Source: a virus (Duplodnaviria > Caudoviricetes). Taken from it: 64,000 nt of DNA. Positions 34,073 through 56,749 of the stretch are shown in pieces. The first letter of the stretch is position 1, and every line of letters begins with the position of its first letter. The translations under genes and the position numbers were made by a program. The notes beneath the pieces were generated by a model that made no database searches, had not been told where the DNA came from, and was given only the letters and a program-made list of their open reading frames with translations. The stretch is from IMG/VR virus record IMGVR_UViG_3300046780_000888, positions 1 through 64,000 of that record, one strand, 5' to 3'.

Positions 34073-34552
34073 ATGTTCCACGGCACCGGACTCGGACGAG
34101 GCGGCGGAGGTGGAGGCCACGGCGGTGGCGGCGGGCATCACGGTGGAGGCGGAGGGGGCCACCACGGTGGCGGGGGTGGCGGACACCGTGGCGGAGGAGG
34201 CCGCCGCGGGGGCGGCACGGTCGTAGTTCAGGGAGGAGGCTGGGGTCCCGGGTGGTACGGAGGCGACGCCTCGTACCCGTACCCGTACCCGTACCCGGTC
34301 GTGGTCGAACCAGACTGCCCGGTGATCGATACCTACGGCAACTGCGTCTGTCAGCTCGTCGACAACAGCGGTCGCTGCGTTGCTGGGCTCGGTGACGACG
34401 CGGCGGCGCCGCCGCCGGCGCCGCTCGAGGCCGCGGCGACCGGCGCGTCGTCCACGACGTGGATCACCGGCGGTCTCATCATCCTTATCGCGTTCGGGGT
34501 GATGGCGCTTGACAAGAAGGGCCCAGCTCCGATTCGGAGCCGAGCGGCCTAG
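34073..34552 (+). CDS. Gly/His-rich tail-anchored membrane protein
   Basis: GGGHHGGG repeats, YPYPYPYP, Cys cluster, AGLGDD, C-terminal TM helix. Confidence 0.7.
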   Translation: MFHGTGLGRGGGGGGHGGGGGHHGGGGGGHHGGGGGGHRGGGGRRGGGTVVVQGGGWGPGWYGGDASYPYPYPYPVVVEPDCPVIDTYGNCVCQLVDNSGRCVAGLGDDAAAPPPAPLEAAATGASSTTWITGGLIILIAFGVMALDKKGPAPIRSRAA

Positions 34553-34554
34553 GG

Positions 34555-34680
34555 TTACCGCGGAAAAATCTTCAGCGCTGCGCAGAGGATTGCCACGACG
34601 GCGAGCCCAGTCGAGATCCAGTTGCCCTTGGATTGGACGATGATGGCGGTGCCGAGAAAAACCGTAATGACGAGGAGCAT
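34555..34680 (-). CDS. Possible small two-TM protein on the antisense strand
   Basis: MLLVITVFLGTAIIVQSKGNWISTGLAVVAILCAALKIFPR fills an otherwise empty gap. Confidence 0.4.
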   Translation of the reverse strand: MLLVITVFLGTAIIVQSKGNWISTGLAVVAILCAALKIFPR

Positions 34681-34794
34681 CCCGGTACTGTAGCGCCTTT
34701 TCGGCCAAGAAAACCGAGCGCTTGAGTTACTGGGCCACCGCAAGTACAGTTCCCAGTGCAGGGCGCTTCCCGACCCCCGGCTCGGGATTCGTCT

Positions 34795-35349
34795 ATGCTC
34801 GCCGCCAACCCCCCGCACGTCACTTCCGGGTTTCAAGGTCACCCGGACACGCTGCGTACCATGGTGCGACAGGCGCAGGGGCCGCGAGGAGAGCAGAGCT
34901 TGCTCGTTCGCCGCATGACCGAAGAGGTCATCCGCCGAGTGCAGCCGAAGGACTACCTCGGAGAGATCCTCGCTCTACGGTATTGGGTCACCGAGAAGGT
35001 GCGGTACACGAACGATCCTCTCCACGTCGAACTCGTGCGTGATCCGGAAGCGCTCGTCGAAGAGATCGATCAGCACGGAGTCGTCACGGCGGACTGCGAC
35101 GAAAGCGCAGAGCTCATCGCCACGATGGCACTTCAGCTCGGTCGCGTCGCCGAGTACGTGGTCGTCGGGTTCGGTGAGCCTGGACAGTACAGCCACGTCT
35201 TCGCTCGAGTGCAGGAGCCGCGCACTGGAAAATGGATCGTGACGGATAACGTCGCGGGTTCGGACGAGCGGGGCATGCTCGATCGGGTGACGACGTTCTA
35301 CACGGTGAGCCTCGATGAGCCTCCGGGAGCGATGAGAAACATCACATGA
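34795..35349 (+). CDS. Transglutaminase-fold cysteine protease (candidate maturation protease)
   Basis: VRYTNDP..VELV..P, ADCDE (Cys), YSHVF (His), WIVTD (Asp). Confidence 0.8.
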   Translation: MLAANPPHVTSGFQGHPDTLRTMVRQAQGPRGEQSLLVRRMTEEVIRRVQPKDYLGEILALRYWVTEKVRYTNDPLHVELVRDPEALVEEIDQHGVVTADCDESAELIATMALQLGRVAEYVVVGFGEPGQYSHVFARVQEPRTGKWIVTDNVAGSDERGMLDRVTTFYTVSLDEPPGAMRNIT

Positions 35350-36050
35350 GCGCACGCTACCGAAATCGCCGTCCACCGTACCCAGTGTACGCATCGCAAC
35401 CGATGTTCGGCGGCGATCTTCCGACCATCGACGAGATCGGGCCGCCAGATATGCGGGCGAGCGGGTTGAACCCGTACTACGACCTCAATAGCGGCGCGCA
35501 CGGCCGCAACTTCGCGGGCCTTGGAGGCAACATGCAGAGCGCTGACGTCGGCATCCAGAACTACCCCAACGAGCTCGACCTTCTCGCCGCGGCGGACGAC
35601 GTGCAGGGCAATGGCGTCTTCGACCCGGCAGGGACGCAAGGCAACATCCATCCGGACTACGGGGTGTTCGCGGATCACGAGAACCTCCCCGGGTACCTCG
35701 TCCGCGATCAGATGTATCAACCGAGCCAGGTCATCGACGGCACGACGGGCGAGCCGGTGCTCTACGTTCCGGGCGGCGCCGTCGCGATCGACCAGAGTCA
35801 GTTCGATACCATCCGCGCCCGCCAGCTCCTGTGGGAGCTCCCGCCCGGAGTAAGCCCCGAGCCGACGCAGGAGCCGAACGACGGAGAGACCTGGATCCCG
35901 AACGAGGATTCGTGGGCGGTCAACGGGCTCGGCGACGAGGCCATTGCGGCGCCGTCTGGCGGCACGTCCTCGAGAACGGGGCTCATCGCGGGCTTTGCCA
36001 TCGTCGGGCTCTCGATCGGCATCTTGGCCGCGACGCTGATGAAGAAGTAG
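35346..36050 (+). CDS. Tail-anchored virion membrane protein
   Basis: AGLGG and NGLGDE motifs; C-terminal TM helix plus KK. Confidence 0.7.
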   Translation: MSARYRNRRPPYPVYASQPMFGGDLPTIDEIGPPDMRASGLNPYYDLNSGAHGRNFAGLGGNMQSADVGIQNYPNELDLLAAADDVQGNGVFDPAGTQGNIHPDYGVFADHENLPGYLVRDQMYQPSQVIDGTTGEPVLYVPGGAVAIDQSQFDTIRARQLLWELPPGVSPEPTQEPNDGETWIPNEDSWAVNGLGDEAIAAPSGGTSSRTGLIAGFAIVGLSIGILAATLMKK

Positions 36051-36064
36051 GAGAGGCTCCCATC

Positions 36065-36466
36065 ATGGATCGCATGCAGGACTTTCGGACCATTCTTCCC
36101 ACGTTCAATACCATCGGCCCTTCGTCTGACGACGCGCCGATGTTCCCGAACAGAGAGGGGATCGGGAAGCTTCGGTTGTTCGCTCTGTCGCCCGTTGTCT
36201 CCGCAATGCGTGGGCTCGGCGACGATCCGGTGATCCCGGGCGCTCCCGCCACCCCGCTTATCGGTCGAGCGAGCGGCACCGACGTCGTCTGGGCGATGGT
36301 GATCCTTGGGCTCGTGGGAGCGGCGTCCTACCAGGCCGGCAAGGCCATCGCGCCGTCACACGACGCGCGGTCGACGTGGGGCTGGATCGGAGTTCCGGTC
36401 GGCCTCTTCACCGGCGTTCTCGGGCTTGGCATCATGGGCTACGTCGCCAACGGAAAGAAGGCCTGA
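36065..36466 (+). CDS. Membrane protein
   Basis: MRGLGDD followed by two TM helices and GKKA. Confidence 0.7.
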   Translation: MDRMQDFRTILPTFNTIGPSSDDAPMFPNREGIGKLRLFALSPVVSAMRGLGDDPVIPGAPATPLIGRASGTDVVWAMVILGLVGAASYQAGKAIAPSHDARSTWGWIGVPVGLFTGVLGLGIMGYVANGKKA

Positions 36467-36469
36467 TCG

Positions 36470-36826
36470 ATGGGCTGCGGATGCAACAACGGAGGAGGAA
36501 CCGGCATGCGAGGCCTTGGTCTGTCCATGAACACGTACAACGGCCCCGTTCCTCCCGGCGTGCCGAATCCGTTCACCGTGATGCTGCACAGCTACCCGAC
36601 GCGGTACCACGGGCCGATCTACACGCGTCCGATGTACGATCTGCCATGGGCGGAGCGCCCGAACGACTTCGGTCTCGAGCCGCAGATGAACGGCCTCGGG
36701 ATCGAACCGGCGGACGTCACGATCAAGCCGATGGAGCCCTGGAAGGTTGCCGTGGGCATCGCGGCGGCCATCGGCATCGTCTACGTCGCCATGCAAATGG
36801 GAGGGCCGCACCGTGTACGTGCGTGA
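36470..36826 (+). CDS. Tail-anchored membrane protein
   Basis: MGCGC start, MRGLG and MNGLG motifs, C-terminal TM helix. Confidence 0.7.
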   Translation: MGCGCNNGGGTGMRGLGLSMNTYNGPVPPGVPNPFTVMLHSYPTRYHGPIYTRPMYDLPWAERPNDFGLEPQMNGLGIEPADVTIKPMEPWKVAVGIAAAIGIVYVAMQMGGPHRVRA

Positions 36827-37157
36827 CGGACAGAGAATGCCGGAGCCCGAGGAGGGCGCCGCGTTTTTCGAGCCGATTCGGTTCGATGTCGGCATGGTTC
36901 CGCCCCGCACGATGGGGCTCGAGACCGGGATGCTGACGCGCGGATACAATCTCCGCGGGCTCGGTCAGTTCATGGCGGACTCGGCCGCCTCGGAGCCATC
37001 GCCGGCCCCGGCCCCTTCCGCGCCCTCTTCGGTTCCGGTCGTGGCCTCAGCCGTGCCGCCGAGCACGAGTCCGTCTGCCGATCACGTTCCGTGGCTCTTC
37101 GGCATCGGAGCTGCGATCGGCGGCTTCATCTTGTTCAGCAGGAAGCGGAAAAGGTAA
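36813..37157 (+). CDS. Tail-anchored membrane protein
   Basis: LRGLGQ, Pro/Ser linker, TM helix plus RKRKR; start uncertain. Confidence 0.65.
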   Translation: MYVRDGQRMPEPEEGAAFFEPIRFDVGMVPPRTMGLETGMLTRGYNLRGLGQFMADSAASEPSPAPAPSAPSSVPVVASAVPPSTSPSADHVPWLFGIGAAIGGFILFSRKRKR

Positions 37158-37669
37158 TGGACGTTCAAACTCGCGAAGGCATCTTTGGCGGAGGCGCGTA
37201 CGGCGGCGGCGTGTTCGACGGATCGAACATGGGCTTCGGCGCGCTCGGGGGCCTCGGTGTGTTCCCGCCTCCGAGCAAATACCCCGCAGGGTACCCCTCG
37301 CCGACCTACACGGCGAAGGCCGGCGAGACGGGGACCACGATCGCTCGCGACATCACCGGGAACGGGAACCGGTGGACCGAACTCGTTACGGCGAACCCGG
37401 AGACGAAGGACGCGACCATCGGGATGCGGTTCAATCCAGGAAAATCGCTGAAGCTACCCACGTCATGGGTGGCCGCCGCGGGCGTGACGGCGACTCCGGA
37501 CAGCCCGACGAGCATCGCGCCCGCTCCGGGTACAGCAGCAAGCGCGACAGCTGTTACGTCTACGTCGGCCTCGTCGCCGGCAGAATCCGGTATGTCGACC
37601 GGCATGGTCGTCGCAGGTCTCGTTGGTGTGGCGGTGATCGCCGGCATCTTCATCATGAGGAACAAGTAA
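37157..37669 (+). CDS. LysM-domain tail-anchored protein
   Basis: YTAKAGETGTTIARDITGNGNRWTELVTANP...PGKSLKLP (LysM); TM helix plus RNK. Confidence 0.8.
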   Translation: MDVQTREGIFGGGAYGGGVFDGSNMGFGALGGLGVFPPPSKYPAGYPSPTYTAKAGETGTTIARDITGNGNRWTELVTANPETKDATIGMRFNPGKSLKLPTSWVAAAGVTATPDSPTSIAPAPGTAASATAVTSTSASSPAESGMSTGMVVAGLVGVAVIAGIFIMRNK

Positions 37670-37670
37670 G

Positions 37671-38417
37671 ATGTACTCAGGAGTAGGATTCAGTGGGCAG
37701 AGCGGTCTCGGCGGCGACGCGTGGCAATGGATGTCATCGACGCCAGATCCGCTTTTGGTTCGTTTCCAGAAGGCGCTGAACACGGAGCTCACGAAGCGAG
37801 GGTTCAAGCCGATTGCGACCGACGGGAAGATGGGTCCTGGGACCTGTGGTGCGTGGGCGTGGCTTGGAACGCTTCACGATGTCGATTTCTCCGCCAATCC
37901 GGATCTGAATCTCGAGAGTTACTTCGTAAGCGGGGACGGAGATAACGCCTCGCAGACGAACCCATGCAAGGGGTTCACGTATCCGACGAAGGTCGGCGGC
38001 GGCGTGTACACCCCGCCCTCGACGTTCTCTGATCAGCTCCCCTGGTGCTCGCACGACAGCCGGGTGGCTGCGGTGCAGCTCAATGTGAATGAGCAGCTCG
38101 ACGCCCACGGGTACGAAACGGGGCCGACAGATGGAATGATGTGCGAGGAGACGTGCGGCGGGATGAAGCTCGCGTCCGATCTCTGGGGCGTCAACTTCAT
38201 GTCTGCGTACGGGCAGAACTGCAAGAGCTTCGCGACGCCAGCGAAAAAAGCGGTAGCTGCGCCTCCCCCTGTGTCCACCCTCGCGCCTTCGACGACTCCG
38301 GTCACCTCGTCGTTCCCAACGAAGAAGACCGGTTCGAGCCAGGCGTGGATGGTGGGTGGCCTCATCGGCGCTGCGGCGCTTGCCGGGCTTTACGCCGCGA
38401 CGAAGAAAAAGAAGTAA
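37671..38417 (+). CDS. Protein with two peptidoglycan-binding-like domains, tail-anchored
   Basis: FQKALN..L...G...IATDGKMGPGTCGA, a second similar unit, TM helix plus KKKK. Confidence 0.7.
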   Translation: MYSGVGFSGQSGLGGDAWQWMSSTPDPLLVRFQKALNTELTKRGFKPIATDGKMGPGTCGAWAWLGTLHDVDFSANPDLNLESYFVSGDGDNASQTNPCKGFTYPTKVGGGVYTPPSTFSDQLPWCSHDSRVAAVQLNVNEQLDAHGYETGPTDGMMCEETCGGMKLASDLWGVNFMSAYGQNCKSFATPAKKAVAAPPPVSTLAPSTTPVTSSFPTKKTGSSQAWMVGGLIGAAALAGLYAATKKKK

Positions 38418-38423: not shown

Positions 38424-39050
38424 ATGCAGAACTACGGCAACATCGCGTACGACGATTTCTCCCACTTGAACGCCCAGTGGCAACAGGAGCGCCCTCCCAT
38501 GGCAGGACTAGGAGCAGCATACGGTCAGCATCAGTACAGGGATGTGTCGTACCTGAACGCACGCCTTCGTCCGATTCTGCCTGCGCAGGTAGGTCTGAGC
38601 CCGGACGGCATGGGCCTCTCGGGCGGCAGCTTGATGGGCAACAGCCTCGGCATCAGCACTGGCGATTTTACCAAAGCGCAGGTGATGGAGACGCAGGACA
38701 TCCTGAACGGCGCCCTCATCCAGGCCGGGTACGTACCGATCAAGGTGGATGGAGATCTCGGCCCCGCTACCTGCGGCGCGATCAACTGGTACCGAGAGAA
38801 CATTCATGCCGAGGGCGGCGAGTCCTTCATGTCGGCGTGCTCGACGGTTGCGGCGAAGCCCCCAACGAAGGCATCGGGCGGCACGGCGCCCTCATCCGTC
38901 GCAACGCGGTCCCCCTCGACGGGCGTGCGGCCCGTGACGTCCAGCGTGTTCGGCTCGGGCGGAGGGACCAACTGGATGCTCTGGGGAGGAGCGATCGCGG
39001 CCGTCGCGGTCGGTGGAGCGCTGATCTTCCGCGCATCGAAGAAGAGGTAA
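38424..39050 (+). CDS. Peptidoglycan-binding-like tail-anchored protein
   Basis: TQDILN..L..AGY.PIKVDGDLGPATCGAI; TM helix plus KKR. Confidence 0.7.
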   Translation: MQNYGNIAYDDFSHLNAQWQQERPPMAGLGAAYGQHQYRDVSYLNARLRPILPAQVGLSPDGMGLSGGSLMGNSLGISTGDFTKAQVMETQDILNGALIQAGYVPIKVDGDLGPATCGAINWYRENIHAEGGESFMSACSTVAAKPPTKASGGTAPSSVATRSPSTGVRPVTSSVFGSGGGTNWMLWGGAIAAVAVGGALIFRASKKR

Positions 39051-39429: not shown

Positions 39430-40320
39430 ATGATCGACTACCTTGCCGGTATGTACGCGGATCTCGTCGAGACGCCCGGGATCCCATGGGATGGCCTGAC
39501 GGCGCAAGGGCACGCGATCACCGACAACGGCTACGACGCGGCCTACATGGACATCATGCTCCAGGAGGGCGCAAAGTTCTTCGGTGTTCTCGGTACGATG
39601 AGCCAAGAGTTTCGCGACAAATACACCAACCTGCGAGCGAACGAAGCGAAGGCTGCGATGACGCAGCTCATGGCGCTCATCGATCAAACAGGTGCCGACG
39701 TGTGGACCGCAGTGAAACACGGAGACTGGTCCTCCGCCACCCACTTTCCTCGAGCGGTCTCAGTCGATGCGCTCGCCTCCATGGCGGCGTCGGCCGTTAA
39801 CGGGGCGTACCTACACTACGATGGGGTCGTCGAGGCGGCGATACTCGCCGGGAAGCTCACGCCCGAGGAAGCCCAGGCGCACGCGCAGTCGCTCGTGCAG
39901 ACGTTTCAGACGTTCGTGACCCTTGACAAGAACGGCCACCTCGATCAGTTCAAGACGAGTCCGCCAGTCGCCGGAATGGGAGGGCCTGAGCTGCTCGCAG
40001 GCTGGGCGCTCGTCGCGCTCGGGGTAACCCTCGTGCTCGGGATCTGTTACCTCGTCTACGTCTTCAAGATTGCGGCTCCTATCCAGCAGAAGATCATCGA
40101 GTACTGTGACAAGATGAGCAAGAGCGGGAACCCCGACGACACGCGGGCCTGCGTGCAGTCGCTCGAGAGCATGCAGAAGAACGGAAACGCGGATCTCGCG
40201 TCGTTCATGGGGACCATTCTCAAACCAGTGATCATCGTCGCTGCTGTAGGCGCCGCGGCGTATCTCGGGTTTCTGTTCCTTCCTGGGCTTCTCAAGGGGA
40301 GTCGGAAGGCGGTCGCGTGA
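39430..40320 (+). CDS. Membrane protein (two TM helices)
   Basis: AGMGGPE precedes the first TM helix; C-terminal TM helix. Confidence 0.7.
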   Translation: MIDYLAGMYADLVETPGIPWDGLTAQGHAITDNGYDAAYMDIMLQEGAKFFGVLGTMSQEFRDKYTNLRANEAKAAMTQLMALIDQTGADVWTAVKHGDWSSATHFPRAVSVDALASMAASAVNGAYLHYDGVVEAAILAGKLTPEEAQAHAQSLVQTFQTFVTLDKNGHLDQFKTSPPVAGMGGPELLAGWALVALGVTLVLGICYLVYVFKIAAPIQQKIIEYCDKMSKSGNPDDTRACVQSLESMQKNGNADLASFMGTILKPVIIVAAVGAAAYLGFLFLPGLLKGSRKAVA

Positions 40321-40658: not shown

Positions 40659-41224
40659 TGGCCCTCCGAGTAGTCGAGACCAAGAAGCAGGCCGTGAAGA
40701 CGTACGAGACGTTCTACGCGCGGGCGCCTGCGCGCGAGATCGAGATGCCATTCGGCTGGCCGACGAAAATGCAAGAAGTCGGCGTCGGCGGAGCCGAGAT
40801 GTACCGCTCGAACAAGTGGCAGAAGAATCTATCGGAGCATGAGGACTACAAGCACGTCGCGGAGGGGTCGCGCACGGTGTTTGCGGAGCCCGGCTTTCTG
40901 CGCGAGTGGGGCTCGCCGCAGCGTCCGATCAAAGTCGTGGGCCCCGTGGTCCGGTTCGAGGAGCCGATGCCGAAGCACTTCACGCGGCTCGGACCGCTGC
41001 TCGGTGTCCAGGTGCAGCTCTATCAGGCGGGCAAGAATGGCAGCGTGGTCGTTCCGAAGGGCGACGAGGGGCGGTACGAGGTGACGGTCGCCCGCGCGAT
41101 GCTCGGAGCGGCGAAACACCCGAAGACCGGCGAAGTCTTCCTGTTCGTCTACACCCCAGAGGGCGTGCACATGATTCTCACTGGCGGCTCGCTCAAGATC
41201 GAAAAGGACGGGATCGCCGGCTGA
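40658..41224 (+). CDS. Hypothetical soluble protein (beta-rich C-half)
   Basis: YETFY...YRSNKW...YKH...LTGGSLKIEKDGIAG. Confidence 0.7.
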   Translation: MALRVVETKKQAVKTYETFYARAPAREIEMPFGWPTKMQEVGVGGAEMYRSNKWQKNLSEHEDYKHVAEGSRTVFAEPGFLREWGSPQRPIKVVGPVVRFEEPMPKHFTRLGPLLGVQVQLYQAGKNGSVVVPKGDEGRYEVTVARAMLGAAKHPKTGEVFLFVYTPEGVHMILTGGSLKIEKDGIAG

Positions 41225-47538: not shown

Positions 47539-48354
47539 ATGGCAAAACTGACGAACGTCAGAGAACGCGTCCACCAGCCGTTCTACGACACCCTCATCCG
47601 CACCTCGGGCCTCGGCGGGAACATCCAGCCGATCAATCAGCAGCAGAAGCTGTTCACCAACCAAGCGCGCCAGGACGACATCAACGCCCTGACGAACTTG
47701 CAGAACGGTGCAACGCTGCCCTCCGATCAGAGCCACGTGACGCTCGCCCTCCGCGTGTTCACCTGGTTCCGCAATCCGCAGATCCGGGCAGCCGGGTTCG
47801 CGAACGGCTCGATCAAGGAAAACGGCGACTTCTCCCAGGCGGGCGCTGCGGCGTTTTTCGCTCAGGGTACGGTCGGCGGTGTGGTCGATCCGAACGGCGC
47901 GACCGCGGGTCCCGGTGCGTTCAATTACCCGGGCTCGATCGAGGACGTGTACCGCTTGTACTGGCAAGCGGAGGAGCAGCTTCACTGGAGCTACGGCACC
48001 GGCGAGAAGTTCTCCATCACGAACATGGCCACGAAGTACTTCCCGGACGGCGGCGGCCTCTGGGGTGACCTCGGCGGCTCCTCGGACCTCATCCACTTCA
48101 ACAACGGCACGCCGGACCACACGGCGATCCTGCGGCTCGCCCGCGCCATCCTTCTGCCTCCCCGGCAGAACGTGGCGTGCACGGCGCAGATCAGCCCGTT
48201 GCCCGATGGAGGGAACGGCACCCTCTGGGGCGTGATCGTGAGCGGCAACGGCCGCAACATGCTCTCGCTGAAGGACAACCTGAACGCCACGGACGGCATC
48301 AACAAGGTGATTCAGTTCACCTTCGACGGCCTGTTCGCTCGCGACGTTCAGTGA
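47539..48354 (+). CDS. Candidate major capsid protein (jelly-roll type, inferred)
   Basis: Strong AAGGAG RBS and structured leader. Soluble and N/G/T-rich with a beta pattern (QPFYDTL...LF...TNLQNGATLP...FPDGGG...KVIQFTFDG). No TM helix, no HK97 features. Confidence 0.5.
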   Translation: MAKLTNVRERVHQPFYDTLIRTSGLGGNIQPINQQQKLFTNQARQDDINALTNLQNGATLPSDQSHVTLALRVFTWFRNPQIRAAGFANGSIKENGDFSQAGAAAFFAQGTVGGVVDPNGATAGPGAFNYPGSIEDVYRLYWQAEEQLHWSYGTGEKFSITNMATKYFPDGGGLWGDLGGSSDLIHFNNGTPDHTAILRLARAILLPPRQNVACTAQISPLPDGGNGTLWGVIVSGNGRNMLSLKDNLNATDGINKVIQFTFDGLFARDVQ

Positions 48355-49499: not shown

Positions 49500-50402
49500 A
49501 TGAACTGGCCTCTGCATCTGACGCCAAGGCAGATCAAGGGGCTGGGCATCCCTCCGGTCCAGCCTCCTCTCGAGCCCGCGCCGTATCTTCTGCCCGGTGA
49601 GGACGAAGGTCCGCCCCCGTCCGGGTACGGAGGGCAGGGGTCGACCCTCGGTTGCAACGCGCATCGCGTGCAACTCGCCGGCGGCGCGCTCGGCTCACTG
49701 ATGGTGAACCCGAACGTGGTGCCGTTCGAGCAGCTCTACCGGCGCCTCCCGGAGGAAGGCATGTTCCTCGACAGCGTCAGTCCCGAGACGCCGTTCGCGT
49801 TCGAGCTCGGCGCGTTCCGGGTGCCGCTGAACTTCGTTCTGATGCTTTTCGATCTGCGGCCAGACGTCTATCGGTTCAGCGGTGTCGACGCTGGGGACAC
49901 CGTGCCAGTCGAGGCGCGGCGGTTCTCGTCCATCATGGGGTTTCAGATCTCGGTGGACCAGCAGCAGCCGGGGAATCTCCTCTACCAGCTCGACCCAGTT
50001 CCCATTCAGCGGGCGACGCAGGCGTTCACGACGCCAGGGGCGGGCGTCGCGGAGCTGCCTCCGGCGCTCGCAGCGGCCATCGGGCTCGGGCAGTCGCGCT
50101 TCAACATCGCGGCGGCCTCGAGCTTCGCGAGCCCGGCCGGGGGAGGGATGTCGCTTCTCCCGCAGCGGCCCACGCGCTACGGGCCTCTCAGCGTCCCCTT
50201 CACGCTGTACGTCCGCAGCAATCAGACGGTGCAGATCCGGTGCGTGATCTTCCAGCCAATTCCGTCGCCCATTGCGTTCATAGAGTACGATATCGCCGGG
50301 ATGCTGATGCCGGAAGAATACGTCGACTCCCTCACGGAGTGTATGAAGCCCCTCACGAACGCGAGCCTCGGTCCTGGCTCACTCGGTCCGGGGGGAAGAT
50401 GA
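49500..50402 (+). CDS. Candidate minor capsid/penton-like beta protein
   Basis: FELGAFRVP..FVLML...FTLYVRSNQTVQIRC...EYDIAG; IKGLG near the N-terminus. Confidence 0.4.
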   Translation: MNWPLHLTPRQIKGLGIPPVQPPLEPAPYLLPGEDEGPPPSGYGGQGSTLGCNAHRVQLAGGALGSLMVNPNVVPFEQLYRRLPEEGMFLDSVSPETPFAFELGAFRVPLNFVLMLFDLRPDVYRFSGVDAGDTVPVEARRFSSIMGFQISVDQQQPGNLLYQLDPVPIQRATQAFTTPGAGVAELPPALAAAIGLGQSRFNIAAASSFASPAGGGMSLLPQRPTRYGPLSVPFTLYVRSNQTVQIRCVIFQPIPSPIAFIEYDIAGMLMPEEYVDSLTECMKPLTNASLGPGSLGPGGR

Positions 50403-50553: not shown

Positions 50554-51369
50554 ATGGTGATGCAGCAATACATGGAGCACGGCGGCTCGGGGCTTCCCTG
50601 GGACGAGATGCCCATGATCCCGGCTCCTCCCGGTACGTCGCTCGGGCAGATGCAGGCGCAGGGGATGTTCGCGGAGTTGGCGAACGCGCTCGGGCTTCAG
50701 GCGCTCGGCATCTACACGCCGTGGGCGACCCGCACCGGCGACACGTCGTGGGAGGAGATCCGCAACACGGACTCCAACATCGTGCTCTGGAGTCTCACGG
50801 ACGCGCAGGTACGGGCCGTGCCCGAGATGACCTACGGCTCCCCGCTGCCCTTCGTCGCGATCATCACGAAGCGCCCGATGACGGAGTCCGAGGTCGCTCA
50901 GATGTGGAGCGGGACGGCCTACAAGTCGTACGAGACGCAGGCGGTCTATCGTCAGGACGACGCGAAGCCCGTTCCGACGATCGCGTTCCTTCATTGGGGA
51001 GAGAACATCGACGTCTCGGAGCTCCCGAAGCAGACGCTGGCTCTTGAGCAGAAGGCGGCGGCCGTCGGCGGGACCTTGGTCTTCGCAGCCCAGATCCCGT
51101 CCCAGGGATCGACGACGCGGGATCTTCCGGCGGCGCCGTCCTTTCAAGCGGCGCTCGAGTCGCAGCTCACGGCGGCGACGCCGGTGACCGCTCCCGCAAC
51201 GGTCGTGATGCCGCCATCGCAAGGGCCAGGTCCGATCACGACCGCGGCGCCGAGTCCTGGGCTTGCCCCAGCGCCTGCGGCGAGTGGCAAGACGAACCTG
51301 AGCTTACCTATCGCCGTCGGTCTCGGTGCGGCGGCGCTCGGGTTCGTTCTCTGGAGGAAGTCGCGATGA
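50554..51369 (+). CDS. Tail-anchored protein
   Basis: Pro/Ala/Thr linker; TM helix plus RKSR. Confidence 0.7.
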   Translation: MVMQQYMEHGGSGLPWDEMPMIPAPPGTSLGQMQAQGMFAELANALGLQALGIYTPWATRTGDTSWEEIRNTDSNIVLWSLTDAQVRAVPEMTYGSPLPFVAIITKRPMTESEVAQMWSGTAYKSYETQAVYRQDDAKPVPTIAFLHWGENIDVSELPKQTLALEQKAAAVGGTLVFAAQIPSQGSTTRDLPAAPSFQAALESQLTAATPVTAPATVVMPPSQGPGPITTAAPSPGLAPAPAASGKTNLSLPIAVGLGAAALGFVLWRKSR

Positions 51370-52142
51370 CCTATCGAACCATGCACGGGCTCGGGGCTAC
51401 GCCTCCGCCTCCGACACTCAGCGACGCGTCTCTCGCGCTCTTTCTGAAGGGCTACCTGGCAACCGGTGGCTGTGCGACGCCGGCAGTGAAAGCGAACTTC
51501 GACGCGCTCAGCTGCTTGAACAACCAACTCGTCCAGATCGGGGGAGCCTGTTACCTCGGCCGTACACCGACGGGGCTCACCGATTTAGAGTTTGCTAGTG
51601 CGTGCATGGATCTCGCCAAGTGCGGAGTCTTCACGAAGCCGGGCTGCCCCGCGGACTCCGCGCCGTATCTCAGCTCGGTGCCGAAGTGCCTGAACGCGGA
51701 CGTCGGACCGCTGGTGGACTACTGCCGGCAGTATCCGCAGTTCAACGGCGACAACAAACAGGCCAACGCAGCATGCTGGGCGATGTCCCGCTATCAGGAC
51801 GTTTACCAGAAGGTGATGGCGCTCGGTCCGTGCCCATCCCCGTCCGTCACGGTCGCGCCCCCGGTGTATCAACCGGCTCCTCCTCCCCCGTCGGCCGCGC
51901 CACCGGCGTATCAGCCGCCGCCTCCATCCGACATGCCGCCTCCCCAGCAATCGTCGGCTCCTCCCGGCTCGCCCGAGGCGACGCCAGGACCGATCGATGT
52001 CGCTCCTCCGGACTCCGGTTCAAGCGTGACGACGGATGCCGGGGCGCCGCCCCCTGCGCCCCAAAAATCCAACATGATGATGTGGGGCCTCGCGGGCGCT
52101 GCGGCGCTCGGTGTGGGGTACCTCATTTTCAGAAAGAAGTAG
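51366..52142 (+). CDS. Cys-rich tail-anchored protein (paralog of 52146)
   Basis: MHGLGA; YCRQYPQFNGDNKQANAACWA; Pro-rich stalk; TM helix plus RKK. Confidence 0.75.
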   Translation: MTYRTMHGLGATPPPPTLSDASLALFLKGYLATGGCATPAVKANFDALSCLNNQLVQIGGACYLGRTPTGLTDLEFASACMDLAKCGVFTKPGCPADSAPYLSSVPKCLNADVGPLVDYCRQYPQFNGDNKQANAACWAMSRYQDVYQKVMALGPCPSPSVTVAPPVYQPAPPPPSAAPPAYQPPPPSDMPPPQQSSAPPGSPEATPGPIDVAPPDSGSSVTTDAGAPPPAPQKSNMMMWGLAGAAALGVGYLIFRKK

Positions 52143-52145: not shown

Positions 52146-52865
52146 ATGTACAGCGGAGTAGGACTGCTTGAATCAACGGCGACGGGCGTTCGATCTGTCC
52201 CGCGTCCAACGTGCATCACTCCGGATGAGCGAGCGGAGGCTAACGCGAAGTGCCCTCACGTGGTGCTCCGCGGCGTCGGACTGGGGCAGGCAACGGCCCC
52301 GATGTCCGGTCGCCTGGCCGCGTTCTCGGCGTGCGACGTAAAGGATCTTCCGGATTGCGCCACGCCGACGTGTCTCGATCAGTACACCGCAGGGCTTATC
52401 GCGGGATGCATTGCAGGTACGCCTGGGGATCCTGACTTCGATTGCACGTCGCTCTACACGTACGCGCTCTCGCGCCTTCCGTTCTGCACCGGCGGCGGCG
52501 TCCTTCCTCCGCTTCCGACCTGCCTCACGCCGGATGTCGTGGCGATCATCCAGTACTGCCGGCAGTACCCCGCGGCGAACGGTCCGAACAAAGCGGCGAA
52601 CGCGGCGTGTTGGGCCATCACGCATGATTCCAGGTACTGGACCGCCCTCCAGGCGCTACCCGCGTGCGGAACGGGACAGGCTCTCGAACCCCCGAGGCAC
52701 GTGACGCCGCCGCCTGCGATGCCGCCGCCGTCGCCCCCGGTCGCTCAGGGCCCCGGTGCTGCAGCGCCCAAAACCGAAGCGTCGATGTCCGGCATGTTCG
52801 GGATCCTGGCGCTCGTTGCTGTCGCTGGCGGCGGGTTCTACATGTACCGGAAGTACAAGAAATAG
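52146..52865 (+). CDS. Cys-rich tail-anchored protein (paralog of 51366)
   Basis: YCRQYPAANGPNKAANAACWA; TM helix plus RKYKK. Confidence 0.75.
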   Translation: MYSGVGLLESTATGVRSVPRPTCITPDERAEANAKCPHVVLRGVGLGQATAPMSGRLAAFSACDVKDLPDCATPTCLDQYTAGLIAGCIAGTPGDPDFDCTSLYTYALSRLPFCTGGGVLPPLPTCLTPDVVAIIQYCRQYPAANGPNKAANAACWAITHDSRYWTALQALPACGTGQALEPPRHVTPPPAMPPPSPPVAQGPGAAAPKTEASMSGMFGILALVAVAGGGFYMYRKYKK

Positions 52866-52870: not shown

Positions 52871-53092
52871 ATGAACATGAACCTCGTCGCCATCGCCGGC
52901 GTGCCGCCGGTTTCGGACATGTCCGGAAAGCTCGTCGGCGTCGGCGGTTGCGGGTGTACGGGCTTCGGCGACACGCCACCGACGGAGGAGCAGCGGAATG
53001 CTCTCAACTGGACGGCCCTTGTCTTCTTCGGGGTCGCGCTCGGGATTGGATATTTCCTGCTCCGTGAGCCCTCGGGCAGGAGAACGCGGTAG
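52871..53092 (+). CDS. Small tail-anchored protein
   Basis: GCGCTGFGDT, then a TM helix. Confidence 0.6.
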   Translation: MNMNLVAIAGVPPVSDMSGKLVGVGGCGCTGFGDTPPTEEQRNALNWTALVFFGVALGIGYFLLREPSGRRTR

Positions 53093-53313
53093 TGGATAAC
53101 ATGAAGGCTGCCGTGAACGCGGCCGAGGCCCTCGGGCCCACGCTCGATACCGTCGGCGGGCCCCTCGGGCTCGTCGGGCGCGCCATCGGGCTCGGAGCTG
53201 ACGAACTCGACGCCGGGGTACCGAAGTGGGCCTGGCTCGGGATTGGGGTCGTAGCGGGCGGGATTGCCATGTACTTTTTGCGGCCTCGCGTCGAGGCTTT
53301 CGTCGGCGACTGA
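53092..53313 (+). CDS. Small tail-anchored protein
   Basis: IGLGADE, then WAWLGIGVVAGGIAMYFLR. Confidence 0.65.
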   Translation: MDNMKAAVNAAEALGPTLDTVGGPLGLVGRAIGLGADELDAGVPKWAWLGIGVVAGGIAMYFLRPRVEAFVGD

Positions 53314-53349: not shown

Positions 53350-54474
53350 ATGCTCGGAGCGTATTTCGGCAGCACGACAATCACCCAGGGCGCAGGCGGC
53401 TTGGGTCAGGACGGCCCACTCATGGCGTACGCGGACGGTGTGGTCGGCGGGAACGCGGAGAGCGCGGACACGCCGGGTCCTCTCTTCGCTTACCAGGATG
53501 GCTCACTCGGTGCGACGGCGCTCGCGGTTCCAGCGTCCATTCAGGCAGCAGTGCGAGCGAGGAAAGCGAAGACTCTGATCGAGCAGTACATGCAGCGCTG
53601 CATCGCGGCGCATGCACCATCAGCGACGCGTGCCCAGAAATGCGGGACGATGGCCTATATGTGGGCCCGACAAAACGGACTATTGGCCCAATCGCGTCTT
53701 CCGCGAAGCTTCTTCGGTTTGACCGGCCTCGGGCAAGACGGTCCGCTCATGGCGTACGCGGACGGAGTCGTCGGCGGCCAAGCCGCAGATGCGGACATGC
53801 CCGGGCCAATCGTTGCGTACCACGACGGCTCGCTCGGCGATGCTGGGGACGACGATGCGACGCCCGTCGATGCCTTCCACGATGGCGTTCTCGGCCCGCA
53901 CTATGATGGGATGGACACGTTCGGGCCGCTCATGGCGTACCACGACGGATCGCTCGGCGCGACGCAGGTCTCGCTTGATCTCGGCGACCAGTCGGCGCTG
54001 ACCGAGGTGAAGTCGATGATGGCGCTCCTCGCTCCGGAGCAGACGCTGACGGCGGACGGGCAGAAGGTGTACACGCCTGATTGGTACACGAGCGGGATCT
54101 GGGATCCGCAGGCTTCTCTCCTCTGGCAGTACATCGTCTCGAAGACGGCGGCATTCAGCGGCAAGGACGTGAGCGTCACGGCCGGTGACCAGACCTATCC
54201 GAACGCAACAGCCATCGGGTTCATGGTCTCGACGATCGGCGCCCCGACCGCGTCGAGCTACGGTCCGGACTACCTGAAGAAGAACTTCCCGATCCTTTCG
54301 GCGTGGTTCTCCGCAGGCGGCGGTCCCGTGCTCGCGCCCTACCTCTCGCTCGCGGACAAGACGCGGGAAGAGCGTGCGGGCGCAGGCGGCGGCACCAAGA
54401 TGAGCACGATGGCGATGTACGGCCTCGGCGCCGTGGCTCTCCTCGGGCTTGCGCTCGTGTTCCGGAGGAAATGA
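53350..54474 (+). CDS. Repeat-containing tail-anchored protein
   Basis: Repeats GLGQDGPLMAYADGVVGG and AYxDGSLG; TM helix plus RRK. Confidence 0.75.
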   Translation: MLGAYFGSTTITQGAGGLGQDGPLMAYADGVVGGNAESADTPGPLFAYQDGSLGATALAVPASIQAAVRARKAKTLIEQYMQRCIAAHAPSATRAQKCGTMAYMWARQNGLLAQSRLPRSFFGLTGLGQDGPLMAYADGVVGGQAADADMPGPIVAYHDGSLGDAGDDDATPVDAFHDGVLGPHYDGMDTFGPLMAYHDGSLGATQVSLDLGDQSALTEVKSMMALLAPEQTLTADGQKVYTPDWYTSGIWDPQASLLWQYIVSKTAAFSGKDVSVTAGDQTYPNATAIGFMVSTIGAPTASSYGPDYLKKNFPILSAWFSAGGGPVLAPYLSLADKTREERAGAGGGTKMSTMAMYGLGAVALLGLALVFRRK

Positions 54475-54477
54475 GTC

Positions 54478-54666
54478 ATGGGCTACCGCACCGATCAGAA
54501 CCAGTGGGCCATGGGCGAGTACTTCGCGGCGAGCGGCGGCCTCGGCGAGACCCTCGCCGCTGAAGGGACCACGACTGACGACGAGTCCTGGAAGAAGCCG
54601 TGGTTCTTCGGACTCTTCGTTGGGGCGCTGGTCGGGTACTCGTTCGCTCATCTGACGAAGAAGTAG
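54478..54666 (+). CDS. Small tail-anchored protein
   Basis: AMGEYF..SGGLGET; TM helix plus KK. Confidence 0.65.
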   Translation: MGYRTDQNQWAMGEYFAASGGLGETLAAEGTTTDDESWKKPWFFGLFVGALVGYSFAHLTKK

Positions 54667-54673
54667 AGGCTCC

Positions 54674-55294: not shown

Positions 55295-55674
55295 CGTACC
55301 GAGCAGTGGGAGCCGGCCCAGGTCCGGTCGAGAAGTACAAGATCGACGCGCCGTTCCCGTGGGGCGACAACACGGAGATCGCAGTCCCCATGCAGCAGAT
55401 GGTGGACGACGCGTGGCAGGCGATCTCCCCGAAGATCGATGCGCTCGAGGCGAAGCTCATACAGGACATGGAGGGCGAGATGGAGATCTACGCTCCGGTT
55501 CTGGTGAAGCAGGTCATGGATGAGGTCGTGCGTCCCGAGATCGCGAAGCAGATGGAAGTCGCCTTCGCCGAGGTCGGCCTCGTGAAGGACGATGCGATCA
55601 AGGGGATGCTTGCGCTCACTGGCATGGTCGTTCTCTCGGTCGGCATCGCCGCCTGGTGGGTGAAGAAGGGCTGA
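55291..55674 (+). CDS. Tail-anchored protein (paralog of 55676)
   Basis: MTYRAVGAGPGP...PFPWGDNTEI.VPM..MV.DAW..ISP. Confidence 0.7.
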   Translation: MTYRAVGAGPGPVEKYKIDAPFPWGDNTEIAVPMQQMVDDAWQAISPKIDALEAKLIQDMEGEMEIYAPVLVKQVMDEVVRPEIAKQMEVAFAEVGLVKDDAIKGMLALTGMVVLSVGIAAWWVKKG

Positions 55675-55675
55675 C

Positions 55676-55912
55676 ATGAGCTACCGCGCAATGGGCGCAG
55701 GCCCCGGCCCCACGACCACTTACATGGTGGATCTGCCGCTCCCGTGGGGGCGCGACACGGAGGTGACGCTTCCGATGGACGCGCTCGTTCAGGATGCGTG
55801 GACGGCGATGTCGCCACGGATGGACGTGGCGATCGCCAAGGGGTCGATCGCCGTCGCGGCGTCTGTGGCGGTCGTCATCGGTCTTGCCGCCTACTGGATG
55901 AAGTCGAAATGA
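55676..55912 (+). CDS. Tail-anchored protein (paralog of 55291)
   Basis: MSYRAMGAGPGP...PLPWGRDTEV.LPM..LV.DAW..MSP. Confidence 0.7.
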   Translation: MSYRAMGAGPGPTTTYMVDLPLPWGRDTEVTLPMDALVQDAWTAMSPRMDVAIAKGSIAVAASVAVVIGLAAYWMKSK

Positions 55913-56148
55913 GGCATACGTGGCGCCTCGTCGTGGATATCTTCGAGGCGGGTATCGGGTTCGAGTACCCGGTGGTTCGCCACGTCTTCGCCGGGCGAAC
56001 GAAGGAGGAGGCCTTCGGCTACTTCGAGGCCCACCTCGGAACCGACGAGTTTTTGAGGGACTGCGAGCGGCAAGGCCAATGGGACGGCGTAACTTGCAGT
56101 CTTCGGACGAGGTGGGTTGCCCCCGGGCAGCAGATCGGCGAGGATTAG
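55909..56148 (+). CDS. Hypothetical protein
   Basis: MRHTWRLVVDIFE...H.F.G.T.EEA..YF.AH..TD.FLR.C. Confidence 0.6.
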   Translation: MRHTWRLVVDIFEAGIGFEYPVVRHVFAGRTKEEAFGYFEAHLGTDEFLRDCERQGQWDGVTCSLRTRWVAPGQQIGED

Positions 56149-56153
56149 ACCGC

Positions 56154-56327
56154 ATGCAACCGCCCCGCGTCGCGTACTGGGACGAGAGCCTCGGGCGTCT
56201 CGTCGAGTCCGAAGAGCCGGACTTCGACGCCGAGCGCTTTAGTGCGATGATGGCGGCGGGCTGCGATGTGACGGAGCGGGACACCATGCCGGCACCACCG
56301 CCCGTGCCTGAGGAGTACGACCGATGA
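56154..56327 (+). CDS. Small hypothetical protein
   Basis: MQPPRVAYWDESLG...; coupled to the next gene. Confidence 0.45.
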   Translation: MQPPRVAYWDESLGRLVESEEPDFDAERFSAMMAAGCDVTERDTMPAPPPVPEEYDR

Positions 56328-56749
56328 TGCGTCCAGTCGGCAGCTATTGGAACGTTCCTGATTCGGACTATCAGGAGCTGCCCGTCGGCACTCCCGGCTG
56401 GCAGGACGCGCCGGTCCCTGGCTGGGGAATCAACCCGTTACGGGCGGGGCCCATGCGAGTGGGCATCGGGCTCGGTGGCGGGATCTGGGACGAAGACGGT
56501 CCCCTCCCTCGATACACGCCCATCGGGAGCCTCGGAGATCACTTCTCGGAGGATGCCGAGACGCTGCACTACGGTGGCAGCATCCCGTGGCAGGACGCGG
56601 TGCTGCCGAATTACTTCCCGCTCGGCGCCGATCCGGAAGCGGCGTATCACGAGACGAGCTACGGCGTCGTCGCCGGGGGCATGGCGATTGGCATCGGACT
56701 CGGGATCCTGTTCGGGTACGCATGGTGGGGACAGAAGCACACCAGCTGA
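56324..56749 (+). CDS. Tail-anchored protein
   Basis: IGLGG, GSLGD and PLGAD motifs; C-terminal TM helix. Confidence 0.65.
   Translation: MMRPVGSYWNVPDSDYQELPVGTPGWQDAPVPGWGINPLRAGPMRVGIGLGGGIWDEDGPLPRYTPIGSLGDHFSEDAETLHYGGSIPWQDAVLPNYFPLGADPEAAYHETSYGVVAGGMAIGIGLGILFGYAWWGQKHTS

What the first reader, a model, noticed from the sequence alone, without database searches (positions are those of the whole stretch)
34073..56749. Proteome-wide G[LMV]G motif matching the adenovirus protease consensus, headed by a cysteine protease gene
Seen: some 20 structural-module proteins contain G[LMVF]G or SLG, typically near the N-terminus or just before the stalk/TM and followed by D, A, Q or E. Examples: MRGLGDD (36065), MRGLG and MNGLG (36470), LRGLGQ (36813), LGGLG (37157), MAGLGA (38424), MRGMGE (44841), IKGLG (49500), MHGLGA (51366), LRGVGLGQ (52146), LTGLGQ (53350), also AGLGDD, NGLGDE and AGMGEYF. 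It seems much rarer in the replication genes. Established: adenain cleaves (M/I/L)xGx/G and (M/I/L)xGG/x in virion precursors. A Cys-His-Asp transglutaminase-fold gene (34795..35349) lies at the head of the module. Inference: a bacterial virus with adenovirus/NCLDV-style maturation cleavage, carried out by a different protease fold. Alternatively the motif is a capsid-docking or sorting signal.
Basis: partly seen in the sequence, partly recalled or inferred. Interest (0 to 1): 0.9.

Follow-up and report, generated by a model that had tools for sequence, protein, structure and literature searches.

The report
Gly-Leu-Gly tag beside viral cysteine enzyme
Most membrane-anchored and core proteins of a large, undescribed, probably tailless bacterial virus carry a short Gly-Leu-Gly tag, always alongside a conserved cysteine enzyme, which looks like a cut-to-mature system like adenovirus's, though no cutting has been shown.

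Summary
In my 31 gene calls for 34-57 kb, GLG occurs 29 times against 6.9 expected from each protein's composition (0 of 2000 shuffles reach 29). The other 103 genes have 13 against 17.3. The signal lies in the peptide, not the DNA. It recurs in relatives: 15 of 16 usable loci are enriched, and in a 179-kb relative the excess sits only in the same module. About half the sites survive in orthologues while flanks drift, and about half lie in the first 60 residues. The gene at 34795-35349 has a transglutaminase-like fold with invariant Cys101, His134 and Asp151. It is present in 15 of 15 relatives tested and is homologous to gp34, an annotated structural protein of Salisaeta phage SSIP-1. No adenain-type protease was found. 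Cleavage is inferred, not shown, and a sorting or docking signal remains a live rival. The capsid candidates' own sites are not conserved. This scan had already noted the same tag-plus-enzyme pattern on other DNA. I found no description in print in four searches.

The parts
34795..35349 (+). Transglutaminase-like Cys-His-Asp enzyme (184 aa), the candidate protease. Cys101 is at 35095-35097, His134 at 35194-35196 and Asp151 at 35245-35247.
   Evidence: 230 homologues. C101, H134 and D151 are invariant in 25 sequences. AF2 mean pLDDT 87. Foldseek hits to putative proteases 3kd4 and 3isr, PNGase, TglA and LapG. Pfam PF01841 E 0.001, 19.8 bits, below the 23-bit cut-off. Homologous to SSIP-1 gp34.
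34040..34552 (+). Gly-rich tail-anchored protein with CVAGLGDD at residue 116 and a TM at 139-157.
35346..36050 (+). Tail-anchored protein whose start overlaps the enzyme's stop. AVNGLGDE at 194, TM at 213-231.
36065..36466 (+). Membrane protein with AMRGLGDD at 50, ahead of two TMs.
36470..36826 (+). Tail-anchored protein with GMRGLGLS at 15 and QMNGLGIE at 75.
36813..37157 (+). Small protein with NLRGLGQF at 49, a Pro/Ala/Ser linker and a hydrophobic, basic C-terminus.
37157..37669 (+). Tail-anchored protein with ALGGLGVF at 32.
37671..38417 (+). Tail-anchored protein with an MYSGVG start and QSGLGGD at 12.
   Evidence: The site is kept in 4 of 8 orthologues.
38424..39050 (+). Tail-anchored protein with PMAGLGAA at 28 and a weak PG-binding-domain hit.
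   Evidence: The site is kept in 5 of 7 orthologues.
39430..40320 (+). Two-TM protein with PVAGMGGPE at 182, directly before the first TM.
   Evidence: Kept in 4 of 5 orthologues.
41224..43152 (+). 642-aa membrane protein with the leader MSYSGGGGPHIWVPRRLGLGAAPP (site at 18).
   Evidence: Kept in 6 of 9 orthologues while flanks drift.
44365..44736 (+). Tail-anchored protein with RPGLGL at the start of its TM.
44841..47384 (+). 847-aa protein that looks like a polyprotein. It has a very basic N-terminal 60%, then a hydrophobic region, then VRGLG at 666, G[ML]GEYF repeats at 692, 702 and 784, and AAGLGQ at 760.
   Evidence: G666 and G668 and the GxGEYF glycines are invariant in 12 sequences. Sites 666, 702 and 714 are kept in 12 of 12 orthologues.
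47539..48354 (+). Best-conserved gene and a jelly-roll-like capsid candidate. Its GLG at 24 is not conserved.
   Evidence: 691 homologues. AF2 pLDDT 63. Jelly-roll matches reach only Z 5-6. The site is kept in 5 of 14 orthologues.
48518..49489 (+). Second conserved soluble beta-rich gene of the capsid-candidate trio, with no G[LM]G.
49500..50402 (+). Third gene of the trio. QIKGLGIPP at 14 is poorly conserved.
   Evidence: Kept in 4 of 14 orthologues.
51366..52142 (+). Cys-rich tail-anchored protein with the leader MTYRTMHGLGATPPPP (site at 8).
   Evidence: Kept in 4 of 5 orthologues, whose leaders vary from about 8 to about 60 residues.
52146..52865 (+). Paralogous Cys-rich tail-anchored protein with an MYSGVG start and LRGVGLGQ at 43-47.
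   Evidence: L-x-G-[LMV]-G is kept in 6 of 6 orthologues.
53092..53313 (+). 73-aa protein with GRAIGLGADE at 33.
   Evidence: Kept in 9 of 12 orthologues.
53350..54474 (+). Tail-anchored protein with QGAGGLGQDGPL at 17 and LTGLGQDGPL at 126.
   Evidence: Site 17 is kept in 6 of 6 orthologues and site 126 in 1 of 6.
54478..54666 (+). 62-aa protein with SGGLGETL at 21.
56324..56749 (+). Tail-anchored protein, the last gene of the stretch given. Its GIGLGGG at 49 is not conserved.
   Evidence: Kept in 0 of 4 orthologues.

Best explanation
G-[L>M>V/F/I]-G, often preceded two residues earlier by Met, Leu, Val or Ala, is a short linear peptide signal. It is shared by otherwise unrelated late proteins of an undescribed lineage of large (about 110-180 kb) bacterial viruses that are probably tailless and membrane-containing. 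It sits mostly in N-terminal leaders and at joints of tail-anchored membrane proteins. It also occurs in a protamine-like 847-aa protein that looks like a polyprotein.

The most likely reading is that it marks recognition and cutting sites for the conserved virus-encoded transglutaminase-fold Cys-His-Asp enzyme (34795-35349). That enzyme would trim leaders and separate domains while the particle matures. Leader and cut may also serve to sort proteins into the particle, as the capsid-targeting sequence does in phage T4.

Shown: the motif's excess, its peptide-level nature, its conservation, its N-terminal bias, the enzyme's fold and catalytic triad, and their constant co-occurrence. Inferred: that the enzyme is a protease, that the motif is its substrate, and where the scissile bond lies.
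For: 1. Enrichment is confined to the module: 29 against 6.9 in the module and 13 against 17.3 elsewhere; 0 of 2000 shuffles reach 29.
2. The excess is specific to a hydrophobic middle residue. Pooled over the window and 15 related loci (L008 dropped because my caller failed there, L014 dropped as a duplicate of L013): GLG 278 against 69.4, GMG 53 against 23.7, GVG 104 against 61.3, GFG 48 against 29.0. GAG (110 against 115.1) and GSG (55 against 58.1) are flat, and non-module GLG is 48 against 55.5. These loci are related, so the counts are not independent.
3. It is lineage-wide. 15 of 16 loci with usable calls are enriched at p<0.05; L009 is not (4 against 2.2). In G001, whose capsid candidate is 56% identical, 0-30 kb holds 29 against 5.7 and the other 150 kb holds 24 against 24.0. 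In G003, 30-50 kb holds 11 against 3.5.
4. Sites are conserved. Over 26 sites, the full G-hydrophobic-G is kept in 55% of orthologue cells, while flanking residues average 42% identity. Six sites are kept in all orthologues. In distant genomes, non-orthologous proteins carry the same tag near their starts.
5. There is an N-terminal bias in three diverged genomes: 17 of 30, 14 of 31 and 7 of 14 sites lie in the first 60 residues, against 22-28% of the sequence space. In orthologues of 51366 the leader varies from about 8 to about 60 residues while [LM][HR]G[LM]G stays.
6. The signal is at the peptide level.
7. The enzyme has an invariant triad and a confident model. Its fold neighbours include true or putative cysteine proteases: 3kd4, 3isr and LapG. 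It was found in 15 of 15 related records tested; 2 of the 17 loci were not tested. It lies 11-20 kb upstream of the capsid candidate, on the same strand in 13 of 15.
8. Its only cultured homologue, SSIP-1 gp34, is annotated as a structural protein. In SSIP-1, ORF36, gp37, ORF52 and gp53 have G[LM]G at residues 17-34.
9. Pfam scans of 79 of the 134 predicted proteins showed no other maturation-type protease, only cell-wall peptidases M15 and M23.
Against: No cleavage has been observed anywhere in this lineage.

The transglutaminase-like fold also houses non-proteases, and several rank close to the proteases: PNGase, Rad4/XPC, arylamine N-acetyltransferases, true transglutaminases and pseudomurein endoisopeptidases.

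Tandem GxGEYF repeats (up to four GLGEYFAQN units in G001) look more like a multivalent binding motif than like cut sites.

About half of the window's sites are not conserved, including those in all three capsid candidates.

SSIP-1's late genes show no GLG excess (4 against 4.0). They show only GMG at 5 against 1.2.

The window enzyme's Pfam score is below the curated cut-off.

My negatives for other protease families are weak. The same route missed PF01841 in this genome, and 55 of the 134 predicted proteins were not scanned with Pfam.
Confidence: 0.5

Rival explanations
1. The tag is a sorting or docking signal that is bound, not cut. It would recruit tail-anchored and core proteins to the assembling membrane and shell by binding a capsid, scaffold or chaperone component; a DnaJ-domain protein sits in the module. 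The transglutaminase-like enzyme would then do something else, for example cell-wall endopeptidase work at entry, or cross-linking.
For: The repeated GxGEYF units are invariant across the lineage, which suits multivalent binding. Residues after the motif are also biased: A at +1; D, Y and F at +2; P at +3. A DnaJ domain lies in the module. The pseudomurein endoisopeptidases PeiW and PeiP are among the fold neighbours.
Against: The genome already encodes SLT, M15 and amidase cell-wall enzymes, plus a weak M23 hit. That makes a further wall enzyme less necessary, though not excluded. The variable-length leaders ahead of a fixed tag fit removable propeptides as well as they fit docking tags. The enzyme's strict co-occurrence with the tag is left unexplained.
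Confidence: 0.25
2. The sites are cut, but by another protease, either a host enzyme or an unrecognised viral one. The transglutaminase-like enzyme would be unrelated to the tag.
For: 55 of the 134 predicted proteins were not scanned with Pfam, and many scanned ones have no family. Small-X-small also resembles the -3/-1 rule of signal peptidase I (recalled knowledge).
Against: The N-terminal tags are not preceded by a hydrophobic signal sequence. The hosts of the relatives appear diverse or unknown, whereas the enzyme travels with the tag in 15 of 15 records.
Confidence: 0.1
3. The tag is a purely structural hinge. G-hydrophobic-G would be a favoured turn or flexible joint in membrane-proximal, Gly-rich linkers, with no reader protein.
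For: GGG is also raised in the module (205 against 102.9). Many leaders are Gly-rich.
Against: GAG, GSG and GTG are not raised. The preference for Leu and Met in the middle and for Met at -2 is hard to explain by flexibility alone. So is the tag's conservation inside drifting flanks.
Confidence: 0.1
4. The pattern is chance or a composition artefact of Gly-rich, high-GC genes or of faulty gene calls.
For: My gene calls come from a simple home-made caller. The DNA is 64% GC.
Against: 0 of 2000 within-protein shuffles reach the observed count. The pattern occurs 29 times in frame against 5 times out of frame. Most module genes have orthologues. The enrichment is reproduced in relatives.
Confidence: 0.02

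Closest known systems
Adenovirus protease (adenain, MEROPS C5) and its precursor code (M/I/L)XGX|G and (M/I/L)XGG|X
   Same: One short Gly-based code is spread over many virion precursors of a jelly-roll-type virus, including a basic core protein. The protease is packaged or particle-associated. [MLIV]-x-G-[LM]-G formally fits the consensus in 15 of 30 sites.
   Different: The fold and triad order differ: transglutaminase-like Cys-His-Asp here, and no C5 or C48 match. The targets here are chiefly tail-anchored membrane proteins. Cutting is not shown, and the scissile bond is unknown.
[quoted passage not shown]
   Same: SSIP-1 is the only cultured virus with a detectable homologue of the enzyme (tblastn E 3e-6, 27% identity over 67% of the query; phmmer 7e-11). 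gp34 is annotated as a structural protein and heads a late module rich in tail-anchored proteins. Four of those proteins have G[LM]G at residues 17-34. A review describes SSIP-1 as membrane-containing with two capsid protein types (PMC6356626, passages read).
   Different: SSIP-1 is 44 kb, against about 120 kb here. gp34 has its own C-terminal TM, while the window enzyme has none. No other protein is detectably shared. The capsid candidates do not match gp45-47 by profile. SSIP-1 has no overall GLG excess.
LapG and other bacterial transglutaminase-like cysteine proteinases
   Same: The fold and Cys-His-Asp chemistry are the same (Foldseek E 2e-3 to 5e-3). LapG is a sequence-specific protease that cuts at a small-residue motif (recalled, not from a call).
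   Different: LapG is a periplasmic cellular enzyme with one adhesin substrate. There is no sequence-level match. It ranks below the putative proteases and PNGase.
Phage T4 capsid targeting sequence removed by the prohead protease gp21 (recalled)
   Same: A short N-terminal leader is shared by unrelated internal proteins. It both sorts them into the particle and is cut off at a fixed short motif.
   Different: T4 is a tailed phage with a serine protease and an L/I-x-E motif. No S78-type prohead protease was found here (a weak negative).

Membership tests
Adenain-type maturation system (MEROPS C5, clan CE) | Protease of the Peptidase_C5 or Ulp1-like fold | tested here: not met
   No PF00770 or PF02902 match in the genome. 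This route is weak, because it also missed PF01841. The enzyme that is present has Cys-His-Asp order and a transglutaminase-like fold.
Adenain-type maturation system (MEROPS C5, clan CE) | Consensus (M/I/L)XGX-G or (M/I/L)XGG-X in many virion precursors | tested here: inconclusive
   G[LM]G is present in 19 of 31 module proteins. Position -2 is M/L/I/V/F in 15 of 30 sites and Ala or other residues in the rest.
Adenain-type maturation system (MEROPS C5, clan CE) | Precursors are cut at the motif in the particle | not testable with these tools
   There are no proteomic data. The SSIP-1 paper is not held.
Transglutaminase-like superfamily (Pfam PF01841) | Cys, His and Asp catalytic residues in that order | tested here: met
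   C101, H134 and D151 are invariant in 25 sequences.
Transglutaminase-like superfamily (Pfam PF01841) | Score over Pfam's curated cut-off | tested here: inconclusive
   The window protein scores 19.8 bits against a cut-off of 23. Many homologues carry a precomputed PF01841 hit.
Transglutaminase-like superfamily (Pfam PF01841) | Fold | tested here: met
   The model has pLDDT 87. Six PDB matches have E<=0.001, all transglutaminase-like, and further ones rank below.
SSIP-1 gp34 family | Sequence homology to gp34 | tested here: met
   tblastn E 3e-6; phmmer 7e-11 against a small set.
SSIP-1 gp34 family | C-terminal membrane anchor on the enzyme | tested here: not met
   No TM in 34756-35349. gp34 ends in a hydrophobic stretch.
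Sortase / exosortase-type C-terminal sorting signals | Motif immediately followed by the TM helix and a basic tail | tested here: not met
   18 of 31 module proteins have a C-terminal TM. Only 3 of 30 sites lie within 60 residues before it, outside the first 60 residues, and the spacing varies.
Tailed-phage prohead protease systems (S78 and the like) | Prohead serine protease gene | tested here: inconclusive
   No PF04586 match, but the route has low sensitivity.
Single jelly-roll capsid viruses (Portogloboviridae, Sphaerolipoviridae and similar) | Capsid protein with a jelly-roll fold | tested here: inconclusive
   The model of 47539-48354 has pLDDT 63. The best matches are SPV1 at Z 5.9, PRD1 P3 at 4.9 and FLiP at 4.6, all under the tool's Z 8 guide value. 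Foldseek E values are 0.2 or higher.

The most novel reading that the evidence does not exclude
The transglutaminase-fold enzyme works like a sortase. It would cut at G-L-G through a thioester intermediate and pass the new end to an amine, either a lysine of a shell or core protein or the head group of a membrane lipid. The internal membrane, core and shell of a bacterial virus would then be stitched together covalently by one peptide code. Nothing here excludes this: the fold family contains both hydrolases and transferases, and the tag sits at leaders and joints.
Probability: 0.07. Interest if true: 0.9.

Novelty: new variant of a known kind. Interest (0 to 1): 0.72.

Why it matters
Maturation by a packaged protease that reads one short code on many precursors is a hallmark of adenoviruses, poxviruses, African swine fever virus and tailed phages. 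It has not been described for prokaryotic membrane-containing jelly-roll viruses.

If the tag is cut, this lineage has independently built such a system with a different protease fold and aimed it mainly at membrane proteins. The lineage is large: 691 homologues of its capsid candidate in public data.

The hypothesis is directly testable, because the enzyme, the catalytic cysteine and a list of short substrates are defined. It would also give a handle on how a virus with no recognisable packaging ATPase assembles.

Tried and rejected
**Chance or composition.** Rejected.

**DNA-level motif.** Rejected.

**C-terminal sorting signal of the sortase or exosortase kind.** Rejected, because the tag is not adjacent to the TM.

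**Signal peptidase I site.** Considered unlikely, because no hydrophobic signal sequence precedes the N-terminal tags.

**Complex prediction.** I submitted the enzyme with residues 652-712 of the 847-aa protein. The verdict was 'no answer' (score 0.01, controls not run), so it is not used either way.

**Sequence search of the enzyme profile against PDB.** Nothing below E 0.27.

**Capsid candidate.** No match in the phages collection by DNA or protein. No profile match to SSIP-1 gp45, gp46 or gp47. Fold matches are only weak.

**Host.** The five MAG hits carry conflicting labels: Pirellulales twice, Pseudomonadota, Pseudomonadales and Methanomicrobiales. The host stays unknown.

**Other protease families in the genome.** PF00770, PF02902 and PF04586 gave nothing. 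The same route also missed PF01841, so these negatives are weak.

**Literature.** Four searches found no description of this lineage or of a GLG code. I saw listings and abstracts only, except PMC6356626, where I read passages. Aalto et al. 2012 (PMC3344969) was not seen at all. Supplements were not consulted.

**Limits of the counts.** Gene calls are my own and approximate. Start codons of several small genes are uncertain. L008 gave no plus-strand calls and was dropped. L014 duplicates L013 and was dropped from the pooled counts.

Full report
**What the DNA is.**
The window is the first 64 kb of a 130,395-base IMG/VR virus record. Its first 9,887 bases recur at its end with one mismatch. The unique genome is therefore about 120.5 kb, either circular or terminally redundant.

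It encodes:
- a tyrosine integrase, a DnaC-like loader, a DnaB helicase and ThyX
- RuvC, NUDIX and several methyl- and glycosyl-transferases
- collagen-like fibres
- a set of cell-wall enzymes outside the window: SLT, M15 and amidase with a PG-binding domain, plus a weak M23 hit

These features point to a virus of a bacterium with peptidoglycan.

Across 79 of 134 predicted proteins scanned with Pfam, I found no tailed-phage head, portal or terminase family. The only canonical Walker A motif is in DnaB.

**The module.**
From about 34 to 57 kb, 31 plus-strand genes (my calls) run head to tail. 18 of them end in a hydrophobic helix followed by a basic tail, against 7 of 103 genes elsewhere.

Three soluble genes in the middle (47539, 48518, 49500) are the best conserved in relatives. 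The first has 691 homologues, all unnamed. Its model is mediocre (pLDDT 63). It resembles jelly-roll shell proteins only weakly: SPV1 Z 5.9, PRD1 P3 Z 4.9, FLiP Z 4.6, and Foldseek E values of 0.2 or higher. Earlier notes of this scan on relatives reached the same tentative reading.

I treat 'tailless, membrane-containing, jelly-roll capsid' as probable, not shown.

**Is the motif real?**
Yes.
- GLG occurs 29 times in the module against 6.9 expected from each protein's own composition. It occurs 13 times against 17.3 in all other genes.
- No within-protein shuffle out of 2000 reaches 29.
- Masking transmembrane segments (24 against 5.8) or also leaving out the repeat-bearing 847-aa protein (22 against 5.3) changes nothing.
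- Other G-x-G triplets are not raised: GAG, GSG, GTG and GDG.
- Pooled over the window and 15 related loci, the middle residue is preferred in the order L (4.0x), M (2.2x), V (1.7x), F (1.7x), I (1.4x). Small and polar residues sit at or below 1. Non-module genes give 0.86x for L. These loci are related, so the counts are not independent. L008 and L014 were dropped.
- Two residues before the first Gly, M/L/I/V/F occurs in 15 of 30 sites, and Met alone in 6 of 30. Over 263 distinct sites from all loci, Met is 4.2x enriched there. Ala follows the motif in 32% of sites.
- The 29 sites use 20 different 9-mers. The degenerate DNA pattern is in frame 29 times, out of frame 5 times and on the other strand 3 times. 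The signal therefore lies in the peptide.

**Is it kept in evolution?**
17 related IMG/VR loci were found, with the capsid candidate 52-87% identical. Of the 16 loci where my caller worked, 15 show a GLG excess at p<0.05. L009 does not.

In the 179-kb relative G001, the excess is confined to the first 30 kb, which hold the enzyme and the capsid candidate (29 against 5.7). The other 150 kb give 24 against 24.0. In G003 the module bins give 11 against 3.5.

In alignments of orthologues, 26 window sites were scored. The full G-hydrophobic-G is kept in 55% of orthologue cells, while neighbouring residues average 42% identity.

Six sites are kept in every orthologue: residues 666, 702 and 714 of the 847-aa protein, residues 4 and 43 of 52146, and residue 17 of 53350.

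Others are not kept at all: residue 140 of the 847-aa protein, 62 of 38424, 195 of 49500 and 49 of 56324.

The sites in the capsid candidates are poorly kept: 5 of 14, 4 of 14 and 0 of 14.

In 51366 the leader before [LM][HR]G[LM]G varies from about 8 to about 60 residues. In G001 and G003, non-orthologous tail-anchored proteins carry the tag near their starts.

About half of all non-TM sites lie in the first 60 residues in each of three diverged genomes, against 22-28% of the sequence space.

**The enzyme.**
The gene most likely starts at 34795, because the identical database protein has 184 aa. It has 230 homologues. Cys101, His134 and Asp151 are invariant in a 25-sequence alignment.

The model is confident (pLDDT 87). 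Its best structural neighbours are all transglutaminase-like:
- two 'putative protease' structures (3kd4, 3isr)
- PNGase and TglA
- the protease LapG
- Rad4/XPC
- pseudomurein endoisopeptidases
- arylamine N-acetyltransferases

The fold therefore allows a protease but does not prove one. Pfam's own score for the window protein is under the cut-off.

The enzyme was found in 15 of 15 related records tested, 11-20 kb upstream of the capsid candidate, and on the same strand in 13 of them. L002 and L014 were not tested.

Its only homologue among 50,697 phage records is gp34 of Salisaeta icosahedral phage 1. gp34 is annotated as a structural protein and heads a late module of tail-anchored proteins. 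Four SSIP-1 late proteins have G[LM]G at residues 17-34. However, SSIP-1 shows no overall GLG excess: 4 against 4.0, with GMG at 5 against 1.2.

**How it most likely works.**
The enzyme has no signal peptide or TM. The tagged proteins are tail-anchored with their bulk N-terminal to the anchor, so enzyme and tags would share one side of the membrane. This is an inference.

I read the tag as the enzyme's recognition site. On that reading, leaders are trimmed and the 847-aa protein is divided. That protein has a basic domain, a membrane domain and a repeat-rich tail, with an invariant G-x-G at 666-668 between them.

Which bond is cut cannot be said. G-L-G|X would put Leu at P2, as papain-like enzymes prefer. 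G-L|G would mimic adenain's second consensus. Both statements rest on recalled knowledge.

I put this reading at 0.5.

**Main rival.**
The main rival (0.25) is a bound, uncut sorting or docking tag. The invariant, tandem GxGEYF units favour it. The two readings are not exclusive: T4's capsid-targeting sequence does both (recalled).

**Comparison with what is known.**
The logic is that of adenain and of T4's targeting sequence. The enzyme belongs to neither family. It is a member of the transglutaminase-like superfamily and a homologue of SSIP-1 gp34.

I found nothing in print on this lineage or this code. The scan itself had already noted the same pattern on other genomes, and one of those notes gave me the SSIP-1 lead, which I then tested.

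**Verdict.**
This is a new variant of a known kind of system, worth a bench test.

Noticed in passing
window 1-9887 and G000 120509-130395: The two ends of the record are the same 9,887 bases with one mismatch. The unique genome is about 120.5 kb, circular or terminally redundant, although IMG/VR classes it as linear.
   Followed up: yes
window 54674-55294: A DnaJ (J-domain) protein sits inside the virion-like module (Pfam E 1.8e-13). It may be a chaperone recruiter for assembly.
   Followed up: partly
window 37671-38417 and 52146-52865: Two unrelated tail-anchored proteins start with the same MYSGVG. In 52146 this start is kept in 6 of 6 orthologues. It may be a second N-terminal tag.
   Followed up: partly
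window 38424-39050 and 39058-39423: There are weak, sub-threshold peptidoglycan-binding-domain hits in membrane-anchored module proteins. This hints at cell-wall contact at entry.
   Followed up: partly
G000 102026-112367 (loci L046, L047): A cluster of cell-wall enzymes lies among collagen-like fibre genes: SLT transglycosylase, M15 peptidase, Amidase_2 with PG_binding_1, and a weak M23 hit.
   Followed up: partly
whole G000: Among 134 predicted proteins, the only canonical Walker A motif is in DnaB. No packaging ATPase or terminase is recognisable.
   Followed up: partly
G000 68135-72214 and 96025-97776: A 1359-aa protein carries a tyrosine-recombinase domain in the middle (Pfam 7e-18). A 583-aa protein has a weak Cas12f/TnpB-like zinc-finger hit.
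   Followed up: no
window 31341-33884: An 847-aa protein just upstream of the module is Glu/Arg-rich, looks coiled-coil and ends in a Pro/Gln-rich tail. It has no family hit and may be a scaffold.
   Followed up: no
loci L039-L043: MAG contigs carrying this virus's capsid-candidate gene are binned to Pirellulales (twice), Pseudomonadota, Pseudomonadales and a methanogen. These are probably binning artefacts. One contig of 122,730 bases looks like a whole viral genome.
   Followed up: no
window 35167-35175 (enzyme residues 125-127): The enzyme itself has an invariant G-F-G in the core strand before the catalytic His. It is probably structural rather than a site.
   Followed up: no
G000 116298-116819: A two-TM protein far from the module carries PDGLGAY, SGMGAY and NGMGGE. 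The tag therefore also occurs in a second late region next to the fibre genes.
   Followed up: no
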